From a phage, in the sequence record PV946933.1: DNA of 64,000 bases; one strand, written 5' to 3'. Position numbers and translations under genes: made by a program. Positions 3,602-52,074 of the stretch are shown one piece after another; positions within the stretch are counted from its first letter, which is position 1, and each line of letters opens with the position of its first letter. Below the pieces are notes generated by a model. The model was not told the DNA's origin and did not search any database. It was given only the letters and a program-made list of their open reading frames with translations.

Positions 3602-4003
3602 ATGAAACGGTTGATAATTAAAAGATTGAATTTATTGATATGTTGTTTATGTGTAGTAGTTGCATACGGTTATTACGCAATTAATGATTATATGCATTAT
3701 AAAGATTATGATGTTACTGTAGTTAATACTATTACAGGAACACAAGGAAAGGGGTCTAGTTTATCGTTTATTGCTGTATATGAACTCAAAGACGGTTATA
3801 GATTTAGTGAATATATTTCCCCAGAGATGTATTCTTCAATAGAAAAAGGTGATAATATTACTGTAAGTTTACGTCCTTTCGACGTAAAACAGACATGGTT
3901 TGATAATATTGTTTGGTTCTTTGGAATGGCATTAGTTCAATCTATATGTGGTACTTATATAGTCTGTTCAATCTTATTCCACGTAATTAGTAAAATTGAG
4001 TGA
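3602..4003 (+). CDS. hypothetical membrane protein
   Basis: 133 aa; hydrophobic helices at N- and C-termini. Confidence 0.45.
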   Translation: MKRLIIKRLNLLICCLCVVVAYGYYAINDYMHYKDYDVTVVNTITGTQGKGSSLSFIAVYELKDGYRFSEYISPEMYSSIEKGDNITVSLRPFDVKQTWFDNIVWFFGMALVQSICGTYIVCSILFHVISKIE

Positions 4004-25126: not shown

Positions 25127-27823
25127 ATGAAAGAATTTTATATCTCTATCGAAACAGTCGGAAATAATATTGTTGAACGTTATATTGATGAAAATGGAAA
25201 GGAACGTACTCGTGAAGTAGAATATCTTCCGACTATGTTTAGGCATTGTAAGGAAGAGTCAAAATACAAAGACATTTATGGTAAAAATTGTGCTCCTCAA
25301 AAATTTCCATCAATGAAAGATGCCCGAGATTGGATGAAACGAATGGAAGACATCGGTCTCGAAGCTCTCGGTATGAACGATTTTAAACTCGCTTATATCA
25401 GTGATACATATGGTTCAGAAATTGTTTATGACCGAAAATTTGTTCGTGTAGCTAACTGTGACATTGAGGTTACTGGTGATAAATTTCCTGACCCAATGAA
25501 AGCAGAATATGAAATTGATGCTATCACCCATTATGATTCAATTGACGACCGTTTTTACGTCTTTGATTTGTTGAATTCAATGTACGGTTCAGTATCAAAA
25601 TGGGATGCAAAGTTAGCTGCTAAGCTTGACTGTGAAGGTGGTGATGAAGTTCCTCAGGAAATTCTTGACCGAGTAATTTATATGCCATTTGATAATGAGC
25701 GTGATATGCTCATGGAATATATTAATCTCTGGGAACAGAAACGACCTGCTATTTTTACTGGTTGGAATATTGAGGGATTTGACGTTCCGTATATCATGAA
25801 TCGTGTTAAAATGGTTCTCGGTGAACGTAGTATGAAACGTTTCTCTCCAATCGGTCGAGTAAAATCTAAACTAATTCAAAATATGTACGGTAGCAAAGAA
25901 ATTTATTCTATTGATGGCGTATCTATTCTTGATTATTTAGATTTATACAAGAAGTTCGCATTTACTAATTTGCCATCGTTCTCTTTGGAATCAGTTGCTC
26001 AACATGAAACCAAAAAAGGTAAATTGCCGTACGATGGTCCTATTAATAAACTTCGTGAGACTAATCATCAACGATACATTAGTTATAACATCATTGACGT
26101 AGAATCAGTTCAAGCAATTGATAAAATTCGTGGGTTTATCGATCTAGTTTTAAGTATGTCTTATTATGCTAAAATGCCTTTTTCTGGCGTAATGAGTCCT
26201 ATTAAAACTTGGGATGCTATTATTTTTAACTCATTGAAAGGTGAACATAAGGTTATTCCTCAACAAGGTTCGCACGTTAAACAAAGTTTTCCAGGTGCAT
26301 TTGTATTTGAACCTAAAGCGATTGCTCGTCGATACATTATGAGTTTTGACTTGACGTCTCTATATCCTAGCATTATTCGTCAGGTTAACATTAGTCCTGA
26401 AACTATTCGTGGTCAGTTTAAAGTTCATCCAATTCATGAATATATCGCAGGAACAGCTCCTAAACCGAGTGATGAATATTCTTGTTCTCCGAATGGATGG
26501 ATGTATGATAAGCATCAAGAAGGTATCATTCCAAAGGAAATCGCTAAAGTATTTTTCCAGCGTAAAGATTGGAAAAAGAAAATGTTCGCCGAAGAAATGA
26601 ATGCCGAAGCTATTAAAAAGATTATTATGAAAGGTGCAGGGTCTTGTTCAACTAAACCAGAAGTTGAACGATATGTTAAGTTCAATGATGATTTCTTAAA
26701 TGAATTATCGAATTACACCGAATCTGTTCTTAATAGTCTGATCGAAGAATGTGAAAAAGCAGCTACACTTGCTAACACAAATCAGCTGAACCGTAAAATT
26801 CTTATTAACAGTCTTTATGGTGCTCTTGGTAACATTCATTTCCGCTATTATGATTTGCGAAATGCTACTGCTATCACAATTTTCGGTCAAGTTGGTATTC
26901 AGTGGATTGCTCGTAAAATTAATGAATATCTGAATAAAGTATGTGGAACTGATGGTGAAGATTTCATCGCAGCAGGTGATACTGATTCGGTATATGTTTG
27001 TGTAGATAAAGTTATTGAAAAAGTAGGTCTTGACCGCTTTAAAGAACAAAATGATTTAGTTGAATTCATGAATCAGTTTGGTAAGAAAAAGATGGAACCT
27101 ATGATTGATGTTGCATATCGTGAGTTATGTGATTATATGAATAACCGCGAGCATCTGATGCATATGGACCGTGAAGCTATTTCTTGCCCTCCACTTGGTT
27201 CAAAGGGTGTTGGTGGATTTTGGAAAGCGAAAAAACGTTATGCTCTAAACGTTTATGATATGGAAGATAAGCGATTTGCTGAACCACATCTAAAAATCAT
27301 GGGTATGGAAACTCAGCAGAGTTCAACACCAAAAGCAGTACAAGAAGCTCTCGAAGAAAGTATTCGTCGTATTCTTCAGGAAGGCGAAGAGTCTGTCCAA
27401 GAATACTACAAGAACTTTGAGAAAGAATATCGTCAACTTGACTATAAAGTTATTGCTGAAGTAAAAACTGCGAACGATATAGCGAAATATGATGATAAAG
27501 GTTGGCCAGGATTTAAATGCCCGTTCCACATTCGTGGGGTGCTAACTTATCGTCGAGCTGTTAGTGGTTTAGGTGTAGCTCCAATTTTGGATGGAAATAA
27601 GGTAATGGTTCTTCCATTACGTGAGGGAAATCCATTTGGTGACAAGTGCATTGCTTGGCCGTCGGGTACGGAACTTCCAAAAGAAATTCGTTCTGATGTA
27701 CTGTCTTGGATTGACTACTCAACTTTGTTCCAAAAATCGTTTGTTAAACCGCTTGCGGGTATGTGTGAATCGGCAGGTATGGACTATGAAGAAAAAGCTT
27801 CGTTAGACTTCCTGTTTGGCTGA
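25127..27823 (+). CDS. 43: DNA polymerase gp43 (family B)
   Basis: 898 aa; exo and pol motifs (YGDTDS); recognised as T4 gp43. Confidence 0.95.
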   Translation: MKEFYISIETVGNNIVERYIDENGKERTREVEYLPTMFRHCKEESKYKDIYGKNCAPQKFPSMKDARDWMKRMEDIGLEALGMNDFKLAYISDTYGSEIVYDRKFVRVANCDIEVTGDKFPDPMKAEYEIDAITHYDSIDDRFYVFDLLNSMYGSVSKWDAKLAAKLDCEGGDEVPQEILDRVIYMPFDNERDMLMEYINLWEQKRPAIFTGWNIEGFDVPYIMNRVKMVLGERSMKRFSPIGRVKSKLIQNMYGSKEIYSIDGVSILDYLDLYKKFAFTNLPSFSLESVAQHETKKGKLPYDGPINKLRETNHQRYISYNIIDVESVQAIDKIRGFIDLVLSMSYYAKMPFSGVMSPIKTWDAIIFNSLKGEHKVIPQQGSHVKQSFPGAFVFEPKAIARRYIMSFDLTSLYPSIIRQVNISPETIRGQFKVHPIHEYIAGTAPKPSDEYSCSPNGWMYDKHQEGIIPKEIAKVFFQRKDWKKKMFAEEMNAEAIKKIIMKGAGSCSTKPEVERYVKFNDDFLNELSNYTESVLNSLIEECEKAATLANTNQLNRKILINSLYGALGNIHFRYYDLRNATAITIFGQVGIQWIARKINEYLNKVCGTDGEDFIAAGDTDSVYVCVDKVIEKVGLDRFKEQNDLVEFMNQFGKKKMEPMIDVAYRELCDYMNNREHLMHMDREAISCPPLGSKGVGGFWKAKKRYALNVYDMEDKRFAEPHLKIMGMETQQSSTPKAVQEALEESIRRILQEGEESVQEYYKNFEKEYRQLDYKVIAEVKTANDIAKYDDKGWPGFKCPFHIRGVLTYRRAVSGLGVAPILDGNKVMVLPLREGNPFGDKCIAWPSGTELPKEIRSDVLSWIDYSTLFQKSFVKPLAGMCESAGMDYEEKASLDFLFG

Positions 27824-27836
27824 TAGAATAAATCTA

Positions 27837-27858
27837 GGGACCTCCAGGTCCCTTTTTC
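27837..27858 (+). terminator. rho-independent terminator after gene 43
   Basis: GGGACC-TCCA-GGTCCC then TTTTT. Confidence 0.65.
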
Positions 27859-27939
27859 ATACAAGTAATATAAATCTATACTTATGAAAAAGAGATGATT
27901 CTGGACCCTTTGGATTCCCTAAAATTTTTTCACAAAACT

Positions 27940-27969
27940 GTTTACATCCCTGTTCTTCCATGGTACTAT
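27940..27969 (+). promoter_or_regulatory. early promoter
   Basis: GTTTAC-N18-TGGTACTAT plus conserved leader. Confidence 0.6.
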
Positions 27970-28006
27970 ACAACTATCAACTACTGATACGGATTTGGAG
28001 AATGAA

Positions 28007-28387
28007 ATGAAAATCGCTATTTTGGTTATTGCATTGGGTCTTACTGGTTGTGTAGCTCAAGGACCGGTAGTAAATCAGTCTGATGTAGGAAAAATTGTAA
28101 ACTGTTCAAGCAAATTTTATAATCCTAATGTCAAGTGTTATAAAGAAGCTCCAAAACAGACAGTAGAACAAATGCAGGCGAATTTTGACGAAGCTATTCG
28201 TCCAGATGAATCTGCACAAGCATATCGTAATTCAGATGTGATTACGCGTGAAGAAAAAATTGAAAACTACTGCGCCATGCTTTGGGCAAATTGGGCTAAT
28301 AATTACCAATGGCGTACAGGTAAAAACGCTCCGATGGAGTATGTAGTGAATTCTTATAATTCATGTGTAAAAAATTTGACTAAGTGA
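28007..28387 (+). CDS. putative lipoprotein
   Basis: 126 aa; signal peptide with lipobox LTGC; flanked by terminator and promoter upstream. Confidence 0.5.
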   Translation: MKIAILVIALGLTGCVAQGPVVNQSDVGKIVNCSSKFYNPNVKCYKEAPKQTVEQMQANFDEAIRPDESAQAYRNSDVITREEKIENYCAMLWANWANNYQWRTGKNAPMEYVVNSYNSCVKNLTK

Positions 28388-28394
28388 GGAAAAC

Positions 28395-28646
28395 ATGGAA
28401 ACTTTAGTAGCAGGTTCAATTTTTATGGTTTTAGTTTCAGGCGTGTTGGCTATTATTATATACATGCTTCCGTGGTTCATCGCCTTGATGCGTGGGTCAA
28501 AATCGACAGTAGGAATCTTTTTCACATCTTTACTGTTTAACTGGTCAATTATCGGTTGGTTTATTACATTTATTTGGTCAATTGCCGGTGAAACTAAAAA
28601 ATCTGCACAGCAAAACCAAGTAATTATCATCAGAGAGAAGGAATGA
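28395..28646 (+). CDS. imm: superinfection immunity membrane protein Imm
   Basis: 83 aa, two TM helices; between 43 and 42 as in T4. Confidence 0.8.
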   Translation: METLVAGSIFMVLVSGVLAIIIYMLPWFIALMRGSKSTVGIFFTSLLFNWSIIGWFITFIWSIAGETKKSAQQNQVIIIREKE

Positions 28647-28792
28647 AAAGCAAAATTATAGCAGTGCTGCTTTTAATCTTGATGATTATAATAAGTATAT
28701 ACTATAGTGTAACGGTTCCTCTTATGATTCCAACGCTTATTATAGGGTGGAGTTTATTACTGTTACAAGTTAAATATGAATGTATCAATTGA
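28643..28792 (+). CDS. small hydrophobic peptide
   Basis: 49-aa ORF, ATG overlaps imm stop. Confidence 0.35.
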   Translation: MKSKIIAVLLLILMIIISIYYSVTVPLMIPTLIIGWSLLLLQVKYECIN

Positions 28793-28799
28793 GGTTTAA

Positions 28800-29540
28800 A
28801 TGATTAATGACTCTATGACAGTTGAAGAAATCCGTCTTCATTTAGGAATTGCATTAAAGGAAAAAGATTTCGTAGTTGATAAAACTGGTGTTAAAACTAT
28901 TGAAATTATTGGTGCATCATTTGTAGCAGATGAACCTTTTATTTTTGGTGCTCTTAATGATGAATACATTCAGCGTGAACTTGAATGGTATAAATCTAAA
29001 AGTTTGTTTGTTAAAGATATTCCGGGTGAAACACCGAAGATTTGGCAGCAGGTAGCATCTTCTAAAGGCGAAATTAATTCGAATTACGGTTGGGCCATCT
29101 GGTCAGAAGATAACTATGCTCAGTATGATATGTGTTTAGCTGAACTTGGTCAAAATCCTGATTCTCGCCGCGGTATCATGATTTATACTCGTCCATCCAT
29201 GCAGTTTGACTACAACAAAGATGGTATGTCAGATTTCATGTGTACGAATACAGTACAGTACCTGATTCGTGATAAGAAAATTAATGCAGTGGTTAACATG
29301 AGAAGTAATGATTGCTGGGCAGGCTATCGTAATGATTATGCATGGCAAAAATACGTACTAGATAAATTAGTATCTGATTTGAATGCAGGCGACCCATCGC
29401 GGCAATATAAAGCAGGTTCTATTATATGGAACGTTGGAAGTCTTCATGTTTACGAAAATCAGTTTTATTTAGTTGACCATTGGTGGAACACCGGTGAAAC
29501 TCATATTGCTAAAAAGGATTATACTGGAAAATGGAAGTAA
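28800..29540 (+). CDS. 42: dCMP hydroxymethylase gp42
   Basis: 246 aa; recognised as T4 gp42. Confidence 0.93.
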   Translation: MINDSMTVEEIRLHLGIALKEKDFVVDKTGVKTIEIIGASFVADEPFIFGALNDEYIQRELEWYKSKSLFVKDIPGETPKIWQQVASSKGEINSNYGWAIWSEDNYAQYDMCLAELGQNPDSRRGIMIYTRPSMQFDYNKDGMSDFMCTNTVQYLIRDKKINAVVNMRSNDCWAGYRNDYAWQKYVLDKLVSDLNAGDPSRQYKAGSIIWNVGSLHVYENQFYLVDHWWNTGETHIAKKDYTGKWK

Positions 29541-30172
29541 ATGTGCCACATGTTTATAAGTATAAACATCCTAAAACTAAAAAGTGGTATATAGGAAGTC
29601 ACGATGGTCACAACCCGAATTATGATGGTTCGGGTGTAGTTTGGCAACATGCTAAAAAGAAATATGGAATAAAATCCTTTAATAAAGAAATATTATATGA
29701 AGGACCGATGTTTAGACAAGTTGAAGAAATTATTTTAACTTGTTTAGATGCTGCTAATTGCCCGGATTCATATAATTTAAAGAATGAAGCGTGGGGAGGA
29801 AGTTTTCCAGGTAAATTAAATGGAATGTACGGTAAGAAACTATCTCCAGAAGAAAGATATAAATGTGGAAATGCCTTTCGTGGAATCAAGCGTCCTGATC
29901 ATTCTAAAAGAATGAAAGGCGAAGGTAATCCAATGTATGGTAAAAATGAACAGGCATATGGAATTATAAATCGAGCAAAGGAAAATTCTGGTAAAACTTA
30001 TGAAGAAATTTTTGGCGCAGAAAAAGCTAAAATAATTAAAGAAACGATGTCTAAAAATCGTAAAGGAAAACCTCATAATTTGATAGAAAAAATATGTCCG
30101 CATTGCGGACTAAAAGGACGTGGGCCAAATATGACAAGATACCATTTTGACAAATGTAAGGCACTTAAATGA
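29531..30172 (+). CDS. GIY-YIG family homing-endonuclease-like protein with NUMOD3-type repeats (Seg-like)
   Basis: N-terminal VYKYKHPKTKKWYIGSH (GIY-x8-YIG-like); repeated GxxxSxExRxKxSxxxKG segments; overlaps 3' end of gene 42. Confidence 0.55.
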   Translation: MEVNVPHVYKYKHPKTKKWYIGSHDGHNPNYDGSGVVWQHAKKKYGIKSFNKEILYEGPMFRQVEEIILTCLDAANCPDSYNLKNEAWGGSFPGKLNGMYGKKLSPEERYKCGNAFRGIKRPDHSKRMKGEGNPMYGKNEQAYGIINRAKENSGKTYEEIFGAEKAKIIKETMSKNRKGKPHNLIEKICPHCGLKGRGPNMTRYHFDKCKALK

Positions 30173-31011
30173 TTCAATTCGTAATTCCAAGTTATCAACG
30201 CGTAGGGGCAGTTTCTGCCCTTGATATGTTTCCATCTGATTATGAACCACATATTGTAGTACGTAAACACGAAGAAAAAGCTTATTATGACGCTTATGGG
30301 TCTAGAGCTAAAATTATAACTATTCCTGATGATGTTAATGGAATTGCTGGTACTCGTAAAGCAATTACTGATATGTATGCAGGTCAACGAATTTGGATGA
30401 TTGATGATGATACTACTATTCGTATGAGTTCAATGCGAAAGAAAGATGATCGTCGCTGCGTAGATAAAATTAATCAATTAACCCGTGAACAGTTCTATGA
30501 ATTGATTCAATACGTTGAAGATGCCATGGATTGCGGGTATTATCATGGCCATGCTCGTCTACCTATTTTTAAAATTACTTCATCTTGGGGTAATTATCGT
30601 GAAAATTCATATGGATTCACGAATACTTGGTATGACCTCGGGAAACTTACTACAGAACAAATTGGGTATGGAAAAATTGATTTATGCGAAGATATGTATG
30701 CATTTCTCAATTTAATTAATCAAGGTTATCCGCATTTGGCCTTGTTCAAATATCTGGTTGTATCTGGAAAAGCACAAGCTCCTGGCGGATGTAGTTCAAT
30801 TCGTAGTAATTCAAAACATAATAGAGCGCTCGAGCAAATCAATAGAGAGTTTCCAGAGCAAGCTCGTTGGAAAACTTCTAATATTGAAAAACGAAAATCA
30901 TTAGGTGAAGAAGACGAGCCATTAAAGGTTCTTCGTATGTGTGTTTCGCGCAAAGAAAAATCAGAAGCGTTTCATAAGTTTAGTGCTATTCATCCAATAG
31001 CAGTTGATTAA
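30169..31011 (+). CDS. GT-A fold glycosyltransferase (candidate DNA-HMC glucosyltransferase, not T4 beta-gt)
   Basis: 280 aa; IPSYQR near N-terminus and DxD-type IWMIDDDTTI; occupies the slot of beta-gt. Confidence 0.55.
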   Translation: MIQFVIPSYQRVGAVSALDMFPSDYEPHIVVRKHEEKAYYDAYGSRAKIITIPDDVNGIAGTRKAITDMYAGQRIWMIDDDTTIRMSSMRKKDDRRCVDKINQLTREQFYELIQYVEDAMDCGYYHGHARLPIFKITSSWGNYRENSYGFTNTWYDLGKLTTEQIGYGKIDLCEDMYAFLNLINQGYPHLALFKYLVVSGKAQAPGGCSSIRSNSKHNRALEQINREFPEQARWKTSNIEKRKSLGEEDEPLKVLRMCVSRKEKSEAFHKFSAIHPIAVD

Positions 31012-34593: not shown

Positions 34594-34848
34594 ATGATGC
34601 TAGTTAATAGAGAATATCAGTTTAAATCAGAAGAAGATTTGGAAAAATTCGCAAGTGGTTGTGAACTGAATAGACGCACAGCTAAAGTCATAGGATTAAA
34701 ACCCTTTACAGTTCTAGATTGTGAAGTTTCTAAATTCCGCAGAGGGTGTTCTATTAGCGGTCATGCTCTGGTTGATGGGAACACATTTTTCTTTGTTTTT
34801 AGCGTCAGAGAACTTTTATTGATTAACGAACTTGAGGAAATAAAATAG
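34594..34848 (+). CDS. hypothetical protein
   Basis: 84-aa ORF downstream of hairpin-embedded promoter. Confidence 0.45.
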   Translation: MMLVNREYQFKSEEDLEKFASGCELNRRTAKVIGLKPFTVLDCEVSKFRRGCSISGHALVDGNTFFFVFSVRELLLINELEEIK

Positions 34849-34905
34849 TTTACTTTTGTTGGAAATTGAGATACTATATAAACATAAACTACTGAGGAGA
34901 TTATC

Positions 34906-35202
34906 ATGAAAAAATTTGTTTTTGCTGCAATTTTTGCTTTGGCTTCTTGTGCTGCTCAGCCTGCTATGGCGGGTTATGATAAAGATTTGTGCGAATGGTC
35001 TATGACTGCAGATCAGACTGAGGTTGAAACTCAAATTGAAGCAGATATTATGAATATCGTTGAGCGTGATCGCCCTGAAATGAAAGCTGAAGTACAAAAA
35101 CAGCTTAAGTCTGGTGGTGGTGTAATGCAGTATAATTATGTTTTGTATTGCGATAAAAACTTCAATAATAAAAATATCATCGCTGAAGTGGTAGGTGAAT
35201 AA
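34906..35202 (+). CDS. sp: spackle periplasmic protein
   Basis: 98 aa; signal peptide; recognised as T4 Sp (61.3). Confidence 0.85.
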   Translation: MKKFVFAAIFALASCAAQPAMAGYDKDLCEWSMTADQTEVETQIEADIMNIVERDRPEMKAEVQKQLKSGGGVMQYNYVLYCDKNFNNKNIIAEVVGE

Positions 35203-49926: not shown

Positions 49927-50187
49927 ATGAAATATGTTAATCGTTCTATCGCGGCATTAGTATTAGCAGTATCTTTAGTAGGATGTACTGATGCTGATAA
50001 TGCAACCAAAGTTTTGTCTTCAAGCGGTTTTACTAATATTGAAATCACTGGATATAATTGGTTCGGTTGCTCTGAAAATGATTTCCAACATACTGGATTT
50101 CGTGCTATTGGACCTACCGGGCAGAAAGTAGAAGGAACAGTATGTTCTGGGCTGTTCTTTAAGGATTCAACTATCCGTTTTAAATAA
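49927..50187 (+). CDS. putative lipoprotein
   Basis: 86 aa from ATG; signal peptide with lipobox LVGC; terminator downstream. Confidence 0.5.
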   Translation: MKYVNRSIAALVLAVSLVGCTDADNATKVLSSSGFTNIEITGYNWFGCSENDFQHTGFRAIGPTGQKVEGTVCSGLFFKDSTIRFK

Positions 50188-50205: not shown

Positions 50206-50256
50206 GCTTTATGATTACCGGAGTATAATATTCCCGAAACCAAACGAGGATAAGTG

Positions 50257-52074
50257 ATGATTAAGAATGAAATTAAAATTCTGAGCGATATTGAACATAT
50301 CAAAAAGCGTAGTGGCATGTATATTGGCTCTTCTGCTAATGAAATGCATGAGCGCTTTCTGTTTGGTAAATGGGAAAGTGTTCAGTATGTACCTGGTCTT
50401 GTTAAGCTTATTGATGAAATTATCGATAACTCAGTAGATGAAGGTATTCGTACTAAGTTTAAATTCGCAAATAAAATTAATGTTACCATTAAAAATAATC
50501 AGGTAACAGTTGAAGATAACGGTCGTGGTATTCCACAAGCGATGGTTAAAACACCTACGGGTGAAGAAATTCCTGGTCCTGTTGCTGCCTGGACTATTCC
50601 AAAAGCAGGCGGTAACTTTGGTGATGATAAAGAACGCGTCACTGGCGGTATGAACGGTGTTGGTTCTAGTTTAACTAACATTTTTTCTGTGATGTTTGTC
50701 GGTGAAACTGGTGATGGCCAAAATAATATTGTAGTTCGTTGTTCAAACGGCATGGAAAATAAATCATGGGAAACTATTCCTGGAAAATGGAAAGGAACTC
50801 GTGTTACTTTCATTCCCGATTTTATGTCATTTGAAACTAATGAGCTGTCTCAAGTTTATCTTGACATTACACTGGACCGTCTCCAGACACTTGCAGTAGT
50901 TTATCCTGATATTCAATTTACCTTTAATGGTAAAAAGGTTCAGGGTAATTTTAAGAAATATGCACGTCAATATGATGAGCATGCTATCGTTCAAGAACAA
51001 GAAAACTGTTCTATTGCGGTCGGTCGTTCACCGGATGGTTTTCGTCAATTAACATACGTCAATAACATTCATACTAAGAATGGTGGCCATCACATTGACT
51101 GCGTTATGGATGATATTTGTGAAGACCTTATTCCACAAATCAAACGTAAGTTCAAAATTGATGTAACTAAAGCACGTGTTAAAGAATGTTTGACTATCGT
51201 TATGTTTGTTCGTGATATGAAAAACATGCGATTTGACTCTCAAACTAAAGAGCGTCTGACTTCTCCATTTGGTGAAATTCGTAGTCATATTCAGCTTGAT
51301 GCCAAAAAGATTTCACGTGCTATTTTAAATAATGAAGCAATTTTAATGCCAATCATTGAAGCTGCCCTTGCTCGTAAATTGGCGGCAGAAAAAGCAGCAG
51401 AAACTAAAGCAGCTAAAAAGGCTTCTAAAGCTAAGGTTCATAAACATATTAAAGCGAATCTTTGTGGTAAAGATGCTGATACTACTCTTTTCTTGACTGA
51501 GGGTGATTCTGCTATTGGATATCTTATTGATGTTCGTGATAAAGAACTTCATGGTGGTTATCCATTGCGTGGTAAAGTTCTCAACAGTTGGGGTATGTCA
51601 TATGCTGATATGCTTAAAAACAAAGAACTGTTTGATATTTGCGCAATCACTGGATTAGTTCTTGGTGAAAAAGCTGAAAACTTGAATTATCATAATATTG
51701 CTATTATGACTGATGCTGACCATGATGGTCTAGGAAGCATTTATCCTTCTCTGCTCGGATTTTTTAGTAATTGGCCAGAATTGTTTGAACAAGGAAGAAT
51801 TCGCTTTGTCAAAACTCCTGTAATCATCGCTCAGGTCGGTAAAAAACAAGAATGGTTTTATACAGTCGCTGAATATGAGAGTGCTAAAGATGCTCTACCT
51901 AAACATAGCATCCGTTATATTAAGGGACTTGGCTCTTTGGAAAAATCTGAGTATCGTGAGATGATTCAAAATCCAGTATATGATGTTGTTAAACTTCCTG
52001 AGAATTGGAAGGAGCTTTTTGAAATGCTCATGGGAGATAATGCTGACCTTCGTAAAGAATGGATGAGCCAATAG
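50257..52074 (+). CDS. 39: DNA topoisomerase II large subunit gp39 (GyrB-like, uninterrupted)
   Basis: 605 aa from MIKNEIKILSDIEH; one continuous ORF covering the regions split into genes 39 and 60 in T4. Confidence 0.93.
   Translation: MIKNEIKILSDIEHIKKRSGMYIGSSANEMHERFLFGKWESVQYVPGLVKLIDEIIDNSVDEGIRTKFKFANKINVTIKNNQVTVEDNGRGIPQAMVKTPTGEEIPGPVAAWTIPKAGGNFGDDKERVTGGMNGVGSSLTNIFSVMFVGETGDGQNNIVVRCSNGMENKSWETIPGKWKGTRVTFIPDFMSFETNELSQVYLDITLDRLQTLAVVYPDIQFTFNGKKVQGNFKKYARQYDEHAIVQEQENCSIAVGRSPDGFRQLTYVNNIHTKNGGHHIDCVMDDICEDLIPQIKRKFKIDVTKARVKECLTIVMFVRDMKNMRFDSQTKERLTSPFGEIRSHIQLDAKKISRAILNNEAILMPIIEAALARKLAAEKAAETKAAKKASKAKVHKHIKANLCGKDADTTLFLTEGDSAIGYLIDVRDKELHGGYPLRGKVLNSWGMSYADMLKNKELFDICAITGLVLGEKAENLNYHNIAIMTDADHDGLGSIYPSLLGFFSNWPELFEQGRIRFVKTPVIIAQVGKKQEWFYTVAEYESAKDALPKHSIRYIKGLGSLEKSEYREMIQNPVYDVVKLPENWKELFEMLMGDNADLRKEWMSQ

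What the first reader, a model, noticed from the sequence alone, without database searches (positions are those of the whole stretch)
28007..28387. Lipoprotein gene on its own promoter immediately upstream of the superinfection-immunity gene imm
A 126-aa ORF with a classic lipoprotein signal (MKIAILVIALGLTGC) lies between the gene-43 terminator and imm and is driven by one of the repeated early promoter cassettes. An early-expressed envelope lipoprotein next to imm, in a phage that also encodes spackle, is a natural candidate for a further superinfection-exclusion or receptor-masking function. A second lipobox ORF occurs at 49927-50187.
Basis: inference. Interest (0 to 1): 0.4.

Follow-up and report, generated by a model that had tools for sequence, protein, structure and literature searches.

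The report
T4 imm.1 lipoprotein, partner of imm
The ORF is the ortholog of the known but uncharacterised phage T4 gene imm.1, a predicted outer-membrane lipoprotein that travels with the superinfection-immunity gene imm across T4-like phages, so it probably helps block incoming phage, though nobody has tested this.

Summary
Window 28007-28387 (+) is a 126-aa ORF with a textbook lipoprotein signal (MKIAILVIALGLTGC). It lies between the gene 43 terminator hairpin and imm, behind a T4-type early promoter. It is not a new gene. It is the ortholog of T4 imm.1 (97.6% aa identity; Pfam DUF5481, 236 bits), whose function is unknown. In T4, imm.1 is early at RNA and protein level and dispensable in a single-infection knockdown screen. 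New here: the gene sits directly upstream of imm in every lineage examined, with three different upstream neighbours. In Mosigvirus the order is imm.1-imm-spackle. In Klebsiella, Salmonella and Serratia T4-like phages, diverged ~148-aa lipoproteins with the same two C-terminal cysteines occupy the same slot. The model shows a lipid anchor, a disordered tether of about 35 residues carrying a conserved YNPNVKxY motif, and a helical hairpin. No known fold or family matches. Best reading: a periplasm-facing outer-membrane lipoprotein acting with Imm in the post-adsorption block to superinfecting phage. That function is inferred. Receptor masking (Llp/Cor style) is disfavoured, because the protein is 96-99% identical in T2, T4 and T6 and one homolog lacks the lipid anchor. 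Known gene, modest interest.

The parts
27836..27853 (+). Intrinsic-terminator-like hairpin (7 bp stem, 5 GC pairs, followed by TTTTCATACA) that ends the gene 43 transcript
   Evidence: the gene 43 ORF ends at 27823
27940..27969 (+). T4-type early promoter GTTTACA-N17-(TG)G-TACTAT, preceded by an A/T-rich stretch. It drives imm.1 and imm.
   Evidence: 18 copies on the + strand against 1.4 expected. The same motif lies 58-67 nt upstream of imm.1-type genes in 7 of 9 lineages.
27997..28000 (+). Shine-Dalgarno GGAG, 6 nt upstream of the ATG
   Evidence: read directly from the sequence
28007..28051 (+). Signal peptide with lipobox LTGC. The codon for Cys15 (the lipidated first residue of the mature protein) is 28049-28051.
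   Evidence: conservation
28007..28387 (+). imm.1 ortholog: 126-aa lipoprotein precursor, DUF5481. Mature part is 111 aa, about 12.7 kDa, with 4 Cys.
   Evidence: Pfam PF17578 E 4e-71; 97.6% aa identity to T4 imm.1; structure model
28395..28646 (+). imm, the superinfection immunity inner-membrane protein (83 aa). Its start is 7 nt after the imm.1 stop. Its Shine-Dalgarno sequence (GAGGA) overlaps that stop, and no terminator lies between the two genes, so they are co-transcribed.
   Evidence: PF14373 E 8e-16; phrog_1039; junction sequence
28643..28792 (+). 42.1 ortholog: a 49-aa small hydrophobic ORF overlapping the imm stop (ATGA). Possibly a third member of the module.
   Evidence: phrog_3610 E 5e-26; annotated as 42.1 in T4T and RB51; similar small ORFs follow imm in L006, L008, L010 and L012
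34906..35202 (+). sp (spackle), the second known T4 superinfection-exclusion gene, with its own early promoter at 34848-34877
   Evidence: PF25676 E 5e-44; promoter
49927..50187 (+). The second lipobox ORF named in the finding: the T4 39.1 ortholog (86 aa, lipobox LVGC), directly upstream of gene 39. Unrelated in sequence to imm.1.

Best explanation
Window 28007-28387 is the ortholog of bacteriophage T4 gene imm.1.

Shown or strongly predicted:
- It encodes a 126-aa lipoprotein precursor.
- It is transcribed early, from its own sigma-70 early promoter, on one mRNA with imm.
- After Sec export, lipidation at Cys15 and signal-peptidase-II cleavage, the absence of Asp at position +2 predicts sorting to the inner leaflet of the outer membrane.
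- The mature protein has a disordered tether of about 35 residues carrying the conserved motif YNPNVKxY. This is followed by a helical domain whose last two helices form a confidently modelled hairpin.
- That hairpin carries two invariant cysteines (C89, C120), probably a periplasmic disulfide.

Inferred: Imm.1 acts together with the inner-membrane protein Imm, and in the same process as periplasmic Spackle. That process is the post-adsorption block that stops the DNA of a superinfecting T-even phage from reaching the cytoplasm. From the outer-membrane side, Imm.1 would either engage the incoming tail tip or injection conduit, or help Imm act at injection sites. It is an accessory, not an essential part: it is dispensable for a single productive infection, and two T4-like genera carry imm without it.

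My confidence that it is imm.1 and an exported lipoprotein is about 0.95. My confidence in the exclusion role is about 0.45.
For: Identity:
- 96.7-97% nucleotide identity to T4 over 27800-28800, with the gene order 43 / imm.1 / imm / 42.
- DUF5481 at 236 bits against a cut-off of 27.
- 8 synonymous against 2 non-synonymous codon differences from T4.

Lipoprotein:
- The signal and lipobox fit the rule.
- The Cys is conserved in Tequatrovirus, Mosigvirus, P0005 and P0008, and in the 14 full-length intact ~148-aa relatives. Residue +2 is never Asp.
- The cysteines C33 and C44 are gained or lost together, and C89 and C120 are invariant. This is the pattern expected of disulfide pairs in an exported protein.

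Expression:
- The promoter is conserved upstream of homologs whatever the upstream neighbour.
- T4 imm.1 is classed early at RNA level and early at protein level (PMC9697503 supplement files 4 and 6).

Link to imm:
- An exhaustive phmmer search of 1.84 billion representative proteins finds only about five DUF5481 lineages.
- In all of them the gene lies directly upstream of a PF14373 imm gene. The upstream neighbour is gp43 (window, T4, L004, L007), dmd (Mosigvirus) or an frd.3-family gene (L006).
- Mosigvirus has the order imm.1-imm-sp.
- Record counts match: 657 records carry imm.1, and 658 carry imm at the identity bands of those two genera.
- The slot upstream of imm in Gelderlandvirus, Jiaodavirus and Serratia phage Muldoon holds a ~148-aa lipoprotein with the same two-Cys C-terminus.
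- Mature parts of P0008 against P0009 and P0022 score z 5.7-5.8 with 0 of 300 shuffles reaching the observed score. Mosigvirus against P0024 scores z 4.9.
- Foldseek against BFVD lists a Citrobacter phage 'Lipoprotein' third, at E 0.04.

Structure: helices at 53-64, 68-75, 81-104 and 110-125. The last two have pLDDT of about 84-91; residues 1-50 are low-confidence.

Dispensability: a CRISPRi-ART knockdown of T4 imm.1 scored 'Not Fit' (-0.77, p 0.98), meaning knockdown gave no fitness effect (PMC11879866 supplement).
Against: - No experiment links imm.1 to exclusion. Literature searches found none.
- From my own recollection of Lu and Henning 1989 (paper not retrievable), plasmid-borne imm alone gives immunity, so Imm.1 is not required for Imm activity.
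- Gaprivervirus and Dhakavirus have imm directly after gene 43 with no such lipoprotein.
- Adjacent genes behind a shared early promoter can be inherited together as a mobile cassette without working together.
- Remote homology to the 148-aa family is weak at profile level. With full-length sequences, hhalign aligns only the first 30 residues. With mature parts only, the global E is 5e-4 at 13% probability.
- The structure model is only moderately confident (mean pLDDT 62-66), and no disulfide geometry could be checked.
Confidence: 0.45

Rival explanations
1. Receptor-masking exclusion lipoprotein, in the manner of T5 Llp (which blocks FhuA) or Cor of phi80/N15. Imm.1 would bind the outer-membrane receptor used by the phage and prevent adsorption or triggering of later arrivals and of progeny.
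For: It is a predicted outer-membrane lipoprotein made early. It is small and has paired cysteines, as the known masking lipoproteins are. The finding's logic of proximity to imm also applies.
Against: - Imm.1 is 96-99% identical across Tequatrovirus, including T2 (98.4%) and T4 (97.6%), with T6 also carrying it. By established knowledge these phages use different receptors (FadL/OmpF, OmpC with LPS, Tsx). A masking protein should vary with receptor specificity.
- One homolog (P0004) has an AHA|S signal-peptidase-I site and Phe in place of the lipobox Cys, so outer-membrane anchoring is not obligatory.
- No Pfam, NCBIfam, PADLOC or PDB similarity to any known exclusion lipoprotein.
- The gene is linked to imm, not to a receptor-binding-protein gene.
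- T4-infected cells are classically known to keep adsorbing superinfecting phage (established knowledge).
Confidence: 0.08
2. A periplasmic or outer-membrane protein with an envelope function unrelated to Imm. Examples: inhibiting or recruiting a host periplasmic enzyme, stabilising the envelope against lysis from without, tuning lysis inhibition, or blunting envelope-stress sensing. On this view the linkage to imm only reflects a shared early promoter cassette that moves as a unit.
For: - Imm works without it, both from plasmids (recollection) and in genera that lack it.
- T4-type early-promoter cassettes are known to shuffle small genes as blocks (established knowledge of 'PeSL' cassettes, Arbiol et al. 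2010, from memory). The conserved promoter fits this.
- The conserved tether motif YNPNVKxY and the AYR(N/D)S motif look like binding sites for an unknown, possibly host, partner.
- Knockdown had no fitness effect in the lab screen.
Against: The pairing survives sequence divergence to 30-40% identity and beyond, plus at least two relocations. In Mosigvirus, imm has its own promoter in the 61-nt gap and could have separated, yet has not. There it also lies next to spackle. Linkage this persistent is more than a cassette alone would predict.
Confidence: 0.35
3. Outer-membrane half of a spanin-like pair: an outer-membrane lipoprotein plus an inner-membrane protein encoded side by side, as in Rz1/Rz, involved in lysis.
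For: The gene arrangement resembles two-component spanins superficially: a lipoprotein gene next to a small inner-membrane protein gene.
Against: - Expression is early, not late.
- Imm is an 83-aa protein that is mostly transmembrane, with no long periplasmic coiled coil.
- Imm.1 is not proline-rich and, at 111 mature residues with a helical domain, is longer than typical o-spanins.
- T4 already has spanins, pseT.3 and pseT.2 (established knowledge).
- Knockdown of imm.1 has no fitness cost.
Confidence: 0.02
4. Chance ORF, or a cytoplasmic protein whose N-terminus merely resembles a lipobox.
For: The lipobox rule alone is not very specific. It hit 6 of 237 ORFs, and at least three of those hits are doubtful or spurious: a minus-strand ORF, Spackle (which is cut by signal peptidase I) and a multi-span membrane protein.
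Against: The protein was detected in T4 infection. The family is conserved with invariant residues. The Pfam family match is strong. The lipobox is conserved across deep divergence. Codon differences from T4 are 8 synonymous to 2 non-synonymous.
Confidence: 0.01

Closest known systems
Bacteriophage T4 Imm.1 (UniProt P18057, GenBank AAD42583.1; Pfam DUF5481 / PF17578; PHROG 1754)
   Same: Orthologous: 97.6% aa identity, same length (126 against 125 aa), and the same position between gene 43 and imm behind the same early promoter.
   Different: Two amino-acid substitutions (T13A, M91E) and one extra C-terminal Lys. The surrounding genome is T2/T6-like (fused gp39, a 280-aa TAGT-type glucosyltransferase) rather than T4 itself.
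~148-aa lipoproteins upstream of imm in Jiaodavirus (Klebsiella), Gelderlandvirus (Salmonella) and Muldoonvirus (Serratia) phages (P0009-P0025)
   Same: Same slot directly upstream of imm. Same features: a lipobox, a motif just after the anchor (VVPASEVGKVR against IVPASSVGQVR), two Cys with the second in an (Y/F)N-x-C motif near the C-terminus, and a predicted helical C-terminal half. Pairwise similarity of mature parts reaches z 5.8.
   Different: About 20 residues longer. They fall below Pfam DUF5481 detection, and profile-level homology is only weakly supported.
T5 Llp and Cor (phi80, N15, HK022): phage lipoproteins that exclude by blocking the receptor FhuA
   Same: Small phage-encoded outer-membrane lipoproteins with cysteine pairs, made to protect the infected or lysogenic cell from further phage. 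The Llp mechanism is described in PMC9586334, which I listed but did not read in detail.
   Different: No sequence or fold similarity was detected. Imm.1 does not vary with receptor specificity. It is linked to imm rather than to a receptor-binding protein gene.
T4 Spackle (gp61.3) and Imm: the known T-even post-adsorption exclusion proteins
   Same: Early genes with envelope-located products. They are genetically clustered with imm.1 in Mosigvirus, and Imm is co-transcribed with imm.1 here. Spackle is a small helical periplasmic protein that inhibits the gp5 lysozyme (PMC7677548).
   Different: No sequence similarity to Spackle. Imm.1 is lipid-anchored, and neither its target nor its phenotype is known.
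E. coli LpoB-type architecture: an outer-membrane lipoprotein with a long disordered tether that reaches an inner-membrane partner. This is an analogy from established knowledge, not a homology claim.
   Same: A lipid anchor, then a long low-confidence tether, then a small folded domain. This would allow contact with an inner-membrane protein such as Imm.
   Different: No sequence relationship. The Imm.1 tether itself carries the most conserved motif, so it is more than a spacer.

Membership tests
T4 Imm.1 / Pfam DUF5481 (PF17578) | Match to the family HMM above the gathering score | tested here: met
   236.3 bits against a cut-off of 27, E 4e-71, residues 22-124 covering the whole profile 1-103; PHROG 1754 E 1e-43
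T4 Imm.1 / Pfam DUF5481 (PF17578) | Orthologous position: between gene 43 and imm in a Tequatrovirus genome | tested here: met
Bacterial-type lipoproteins (Lgt/LspA substrates; PROSITE PS51257-type signal) | Positively charged n-region, uncharged hydrophobic h-region, lipobox [LVI][ASTVI][GAS]C with Cys at positions 15-35 | tested here: met
   MKIAILVIALGLTGC with K2 and Cys15. The Pfam LPAM_1 model is sub-threshold (11.6 bits against 20), which is usual for so short a model.
Bacterial-type lipoproteins (Lgt/LspA substrates; PROSITE PS51257-type signal) | Lipobox Cys conserved among homologs | tested here: met
   Present in 4 of 5 DUF5481 lineages and in the 14 full-length intact ~148-aa relatives. 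The exception, P0004, has a signal-peptidase-I type signal, so it is still exported.
Bacterial-type lipoproteins (Lgt/LspA substrates; PROSITE PS51257-type signal) | Actual lipid modification and signal-peptidase-II cleavage (globomycin sensitivity, palmitate labelling) | not testable with these tools
   Needs an experiment
Bacterial-type lipoproteins (Lgt/LspA substrates; PROSITE PS51257-type signal) | Outer-membrane sorting: no Lol-avoidance Asp at +2 | tested here: met
   Residue +2 is V, G, A, Q or S in all members, never D. Actual localisation is untested.
Receptor-masking exclusion lipoproteins (T5 Llp, Cor) | Sequence or fold relationship to Llp or Cor | tested here: not met
   Only DUF5481 in Pfam. 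Nothing in NCBIfam, PADLOC, PDB sequences or PDB folds.
Receptor-masking exclusion lipoproteins (T5 Llp, Cor) | Specificity tied to the phage's own receptor (co-variation with receptor usage, or linkage to the receptor-binding protein gene) | tested here: not met
   96-99% identical across Tequatrovirus, including T2 and T4; T6 also carries it. It is linked to imm instead.
Receptor-masking exclusion lipoproteins (T5 Llp, Cor) | Blocks adsorption or infection when expressed alone | not testable with these tools
   Needs plating and adsorption assays
T-even post-adsorption superinfection exclusion (Imm / Spackle system) | Early expression | tested here: met
   Early promoter. T4 ortholog classed early at RNA and at protein level.
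T-even post-adsorption superinfection exclusion (Imm / Spackle system) | Envelope (periplasm or membrane) location | tested here: met
   Predicted from the signal and from the paired-cysteine pattern only
T-even post-adsorption superinfection exclusion (Imm / Spackle system) | Conserved genetic linkage with imm and/or sp | tested here: met
   Directly upstream of imm in all lineages, with three different upstream neighbours. The order is imm.1-imm-sp in Mosigvirus.
T-even post-adsorption superinfection exclusion (Imm / Spackle system) | Exclusion, immunity or lysis-from-without phenotype of mutants or clones | not testable with these tools
   No report found. The only functional datum is 'Not Fit' in a single-infection knockdown screen.
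Iduronate sulfatase (label in several RefSeq re-annotations of imm.1) | Sulfatase catalytic domain, protein of about 500 aa | tested here: not met
   126 aa. No sulfatase family in Pfam or NCBIfam, even at E up to 1. The label is an annotation error.
Two-component spanins (o-spanin lipoprotein plus i-spanin) | Late expression, and an i-spanin partner with a long periplasmic coiled coil | tested here: not met
   Early expression. Imm is 83 aa and mostly transmembrane.

The most novel reading that the evidence does not exclude
Imm.1 and Imm (perhaps with the small hydrophobic 42.1 protein) form a two-component, envelope-spanning exclusion device. It would consist of an outer-membrane lipoprotein on a flexible tether and a small inner-membrane protein. 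Together they would recognise the tip of an incoming T-even tail tube, or the site where it meets the inner membrane, and divert the DNA into the periplasm. The conserved lipoprotein-imm pair across Tevenvirinae and Muldoonvirus would then be the real functional unit of 'immunity'. Imm.1 would be the long-missing handle on how Imm finds injection sites.
Probability: 0.25. Interest if true: 0.6.

Novelty: already known. Interest (0 to 1): 0.33.

Why it matters
How Imm blocks DNA entry is, to my knowledge, still unexplained, more than thirty years after the gene was cloned. A lipoprotein that has stayed next to imm through relocation and deep sequence divergence, and that sits beside spackle in RB69-like phages, is a concrete and cheap-to-test candidate partner.

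If it contributes to exclusion, the classical two-gene picture (imm plus sp) becomes a three-layer one: outer membrane, periplasm and inner membrane. If it does not, it is one more envelope-targeted early gene of unknown role.

The present result also has practical annotation value:
- imm.1 should be labelled a predicted outer-membrane lipoprotein.
- It should not be labelled 'iduronate sulfatase'.
- It should not be labelled 'immunity protein' on proximity alone.

Tried and rejected
1. Fold recognition. Two AlphaFold2 models (6-row and 15-row alignments) reached mean pLDDT of only 62-66. Foldseek against the PDB gave nothing below E 1.8. BFVD returned only the protein's own orthologs and one Citrobacter phage lipoprotein at E 0.04. 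No structural analogy to Spackle, Llp, lysozyme inhibitors or anything else can be claimed.

2. Sequence families. NCBIfam, PADLOC and a PDB profile search gave only noise. BLASTP against Spackle and against the 39.1 lipoprotein gave nothing.

3. Profile-profile homology to the 148-aa family. With full-length sequences, hhalign aligns only the first 30 residues, which are partly signal peptide. With mature parts only it is weak. I therefore rely on pairwise shuffle statistics plus position and architecture, and call the homology probable, not proven.

4. Literature. Six searches built around 'imm.1' or T-even lipoproteins returned almost only journal-abbreviation and DOI noise. Lu and Henning 1989 and Miller et al. 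2003 are not held, so statements about them rest on memory.

5. More genomic contexts. The IMG/VR scan added only near-identical Tequatrovirus and Mosigvirus loci. The broader alignment was too divergent for the tool.

6. Rfam scan of 27000-29500, both strands: no RNA family. Minus-strand ORFs across the region are short and unsupported.

7. A multimer prediction of Imm.1 with Imm was not possible with the single-chain tool.
Full report
**1. What is there**

The window is a T-even (Tequatrovirus) genome segment. Across 25127-31011 the + strand carries the following, in order:
- gene 43 DNA polymerase (25127-27823)
- a terminator-like hairpin (27836-27853)
- a promoter
- the ORF in question (28007-28387)
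- imm (28395-28646, PF14373)
- the small hydrophobic ORF 42.1 (28643-28792)
- gene 42 dCMP hydroxymethylase (28800-29540)
- a 213-aa ORF
- a 280-aa TAGT-type glucosyltransferase

The ORF is exactly as described. It has an ATG at 28007 preceded by GGAG at a 6-nt spacing, a stop at 28385-28387, and 126 codons starting MKIAILVIALGLTGC.

The promoter GTTTACA-N17-TACTAT, with a TG just before the -10 element, lies at 27940-27969. That motif occurs 18 times in the window, always on the + strand, against 1.4 expected by chance.

Spackle is present at 34906-35202. The second lipobox ORF at 49927-50187 is also present.

**2. Identity**

The 1-kb region 27800-28800 is 96.7-97.3% identical to T4 and several hundred relatives. 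[quoted passage not shown]
- The protein is 97.6% identical to T4 Imm.1 and 98.4% identical to T2's.
- It differs from T4 at two residues plus one extra C-terminal Lys.
- Synonymous codon differences outnumber non-synonymous ones eight to two.
- It matches Pfam DUF5481 over the full profile (236 bits) and PHROG 1754, function unknown.

So the finding concerns a known, named, uncharacterised gene.

**3. Is it really a lipoprotein?**

The signal satisfies the standard rule: Lys2, an uncharged hydrophobic core, L-T-G-C, Cys at position 15. The rule on its own is not very specific. It hit 6 of 237 ATG ORFs of 40 aa or more in the window, and at least three of those hits are doubtful or spurious. 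Conservation therefore carries the argument.
- An exhaustive phmmer search of 1.84 billion representative proteins found only a handful of lineages. These are Tequatrovirus, Mosigvirus (36-38% identity), and three metagenomic types, P0004, P0005 and P0008 (31-46%).
- Four of the five lineages keep G-C at the same place. Residue +2 is V, G or A, never Asp, which predicts outer-membrane sorting.
- P0004 instead has ...LAGFSAHA|SD, a signal-peptidase-I type signal. It is still exported but not anchored.
- C89 and C120 are invariant.
- C33 and C44 are present together (Tequatrovirus, P0004) or absent together (the other lineages). This is how disulfide pairs behave in periplasmic proteins.

Processing and location remain predictions.

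**4. Expression**

The T4 ortholog is classed early at RNA level and early at protein level in a time-resolved transcriptome and proteome study (PMC9697503 supplement files 4 and 6). It is therefore made, and made early.

The gap to imm is 7 nt. The imm Shine-Dalgarno sequence overlaps the imm.1 stop, and no terminator intervenes, so the two genes share a transcript.

**5. The conserved pairing with imm**

This is the most informative result. In every DUF5481 lineage the gene lies immediately upstream of a PF14373 imm gene, while the neighbour on the other side differs:
- gp43 in the window, T4, L004 and L007
- dmd in Mosigvirus
- an frd.3-family gene in L006

In Mosigvirus (RB69-like phages) the order is dmd / imm.1 / imm / sp / 61.2. 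All three envelope-acting early genes sit together there, at the place where T4 has only sp.

Record counts agree. Imm.1 is found in 657 phage records. Imm at the identity bands of those two genera is found in 658.

Imm itself is more widespread, in 1022 records. I looked at what precedes imm elsewhere:
- Gelderlandvirus (Salmonella), Jiaodavirus (Klebsiella; 148 records) and Serratia phage Muldoon each have a ~148-aa ORF in the same slot.
- All three are lipoproteins (LAGC or LTGC) with exactly two further Cys. The second Cys lies in an (Y/F)N-x-C motif a few residues from the C-terminus, as in Imm.1.
- The Jiaodavirus proteins share the post-anchor motif IVPASSVGQVR with P0005 and P0008 (VVPASEVGKVR).

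Statistical support for homology is mixed:
- Full-length hhalign gives 94% probability but aligns only residues 1-30.
- Mature parts only give a global E of 5e-4.
- Smith-Waterman scores of mature parts against 300 shuffles give z 5.7-5.8 for P0008 against P0009 or P0022, and z 4.9 for Mosigvirus against P0024.
- Foldseek against BFVD ranks a Citrobacter phage 'Lipoprotein' third, at E 0.04.

I conclude these are probable remote homologs and certainly positional and architectural counterparts. Gaprivervirus and Dhakavirus have imm directly after gene 43 with no such gene, so the lipoprotein is an accessory.

The early promoter is conserved 58-67 nt upstream of the lipoprotein gene in 7 of 9 lineages, whatever lies upstream. 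The unit is promoter, lipoprotein, imm.

**6. Structure**

Two AlphaFold2 runs agree:
- Residues 1-50 are low-confidence. These cover the signal peptide and then a tether of about 35 residues, which nevertheless holds the most conserved motif, YNPNVKxY.
- Helices lie at 53-64 and 68-75.
- A confidently modelled hairpin (pLDDT about 84-91) spans helices 81-104 and 110-125 and carries C89 and C120.

No PDB fold, PDB sequence, NCBIfam or PADLOC family matches. There is no similarity to Spackle or to the 39.1 lipoprotein.

**7. Mechanism**

*Shown or strongly predicted:* an early, exported, lipid-anchored, disulfide-containing small protein that faces the periplasm from the outer membrane. It is co-transcribed and co-inherited with Imm.

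*Inferred:* it takes part in the same process as Imm and Spackle, the block to genome entry of superinfecting T-even phage. Its layout (anchor, flexible tether, small domain) would let it reach through the periplasm toward the inner membrane or toward an incoming tail tip. I put this at about 0.45.

*Against the inferred role:*
- There is no phenotype.
- Knockdown has no fitness cost in a single-infection pooled screen (PMC11879866 supplement). This is, however, expected for an exclusion gene.
- Imm works without it, in genera that lack it and, from memory, from plasmids.

*Main rival (0.35):* an unrelated envelope function that merely rides in the same early cassette.

*Receptor masking (0.08):* this is disfavoured for three reasons.
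- The protein hardly changes among phages that use different receptors.
- One homolog has lost the anchor.
- The gene is linked to imm, not to a receptor-binding-protein gene.

**8. Novelty and verdict**

The gene is already known (T4 imm.1, DUF5481), so the finding is not a discovery of a new element. Its function is still listed as unknown in 2025.

This analysis adds three things:
- a well-supported lipoprotein assignment
- the observation that a lipoprotein-imm pair is conserved across several genera and relocations, and clustered with spackle in Mosigvirus
- an argument against receptor masking

That makes a cheap, well-defined experiment worthwhile, but it is a modest result. Interest 0.33.

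Side result: the RefSeq label 'iduronate sulfatase' for imm.1 is wrong.

Noticed in passing
window 28007-28387; RefSeq records NC_000866.4, NC_054931.1, NC_025419.1, NC_025449.1: RefSeq re-annotations call imm.1 'iduronate sulfatase'. Many GenBank records call it 'immunity protein'. Neither label is supported: there is no sulfatase domain, and no immunity phenotype is known.
   Followed up: yes
window 28643-28792 (+): 42.1 is a 49-aa ORF with two hydrophobic segments. Its ATG overlaps the imm stop (ATGA). Small hydrophobic ORFs also follow imm in L006 (49 aa), Dhakavirus Bp7 (L010, 45 aa), Gaprivervirus UPEC01 (L008, 33 aa) and Serratia phage Muldoon (L012, 65 aa). It could be a further member of the imm module.
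   Followed up: partly
window 49927-50187 (+): The second lipobox ORF is the T4 39.1 ortholog (86 aa, MKYVNRSIAALVLAVSLVGC, phrog_902, function unknown), directly upstream of gene 39. It is far more widespread than imm.1: 1066 phage records, including Klebsiella, Enterobacter, Cronobacter and Serratia T4-like phages. It is unrelated in sequence to imm.1.
   Followed up: partly
window 50254-52074 (+): The gene 39 topoisomerase subunit is a single fused 606-aa ORF (GyrB, HATPase and TOPRIM_C domains). This is the T2/T6-type arrangement, not T4's split 39 + 60. Together with the 280-aa TAGT-type glucosyltransferase at 30169-31011, it suggests the window comes from a T2/T6-like phage rather than T4 proper.
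   Followed up: no
window 29531-30172 (+): A 213-aa ORF overlaps the end of gene 42 and lies between gene 42 and the glucosyltransferase. It has no Pfam hit and is absent from this position in T4, where b-gt follows 42. It is Lys/Gly/His-rich with a C-terminal CPHC...C motif, so it may be a mobile-nuclease-type insert.
   Followed up: no
L002 and L003 (Mosigvirus), locus coordinates 3864-3924: In Mosigvirus the 61-nt gap between imm.1 and imm contains its own early-promoter motif (GTTTACACCAAAGTTAAAACAAGATACTAT). There imm can be transcribed independently, yet it has stayed next to imm.1.
   Followed up: partly
L006 (Logan SRR30535852 contig), 718-1086: A natural Imm.1 homolog (P0004) has Phe instead of the lipobox Cys, an AHA|S signal-peptidase-I site and a shortened tether. 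It is a soluble periplasmic variant, still directly upstream of imm. It comes from a single short contig, so an assembly error cannot be excluded.
   Followed up: partly
PMC11879866 supplement file 15 (T4 coordinates 26373-27013): In the CRISPRi-ART screen, T4 imm scores 'Fit' (1.40, p 0.02) while imm.1 scores 'Not Fit'. A fitness effect of imm knockdown in single infection is unexpected. It may be a polar effect on gene 42 downstream.
   Followed up: no
P0007 (1434 aa): A 1434-aa protein matched residues 82-108 of Imm.1 in six repeated stretches (E 3.5e-7). It is probably a repetitive or low-complexity coincidence with the W/N-rich helix. I did not examine it.
   Followed up: no
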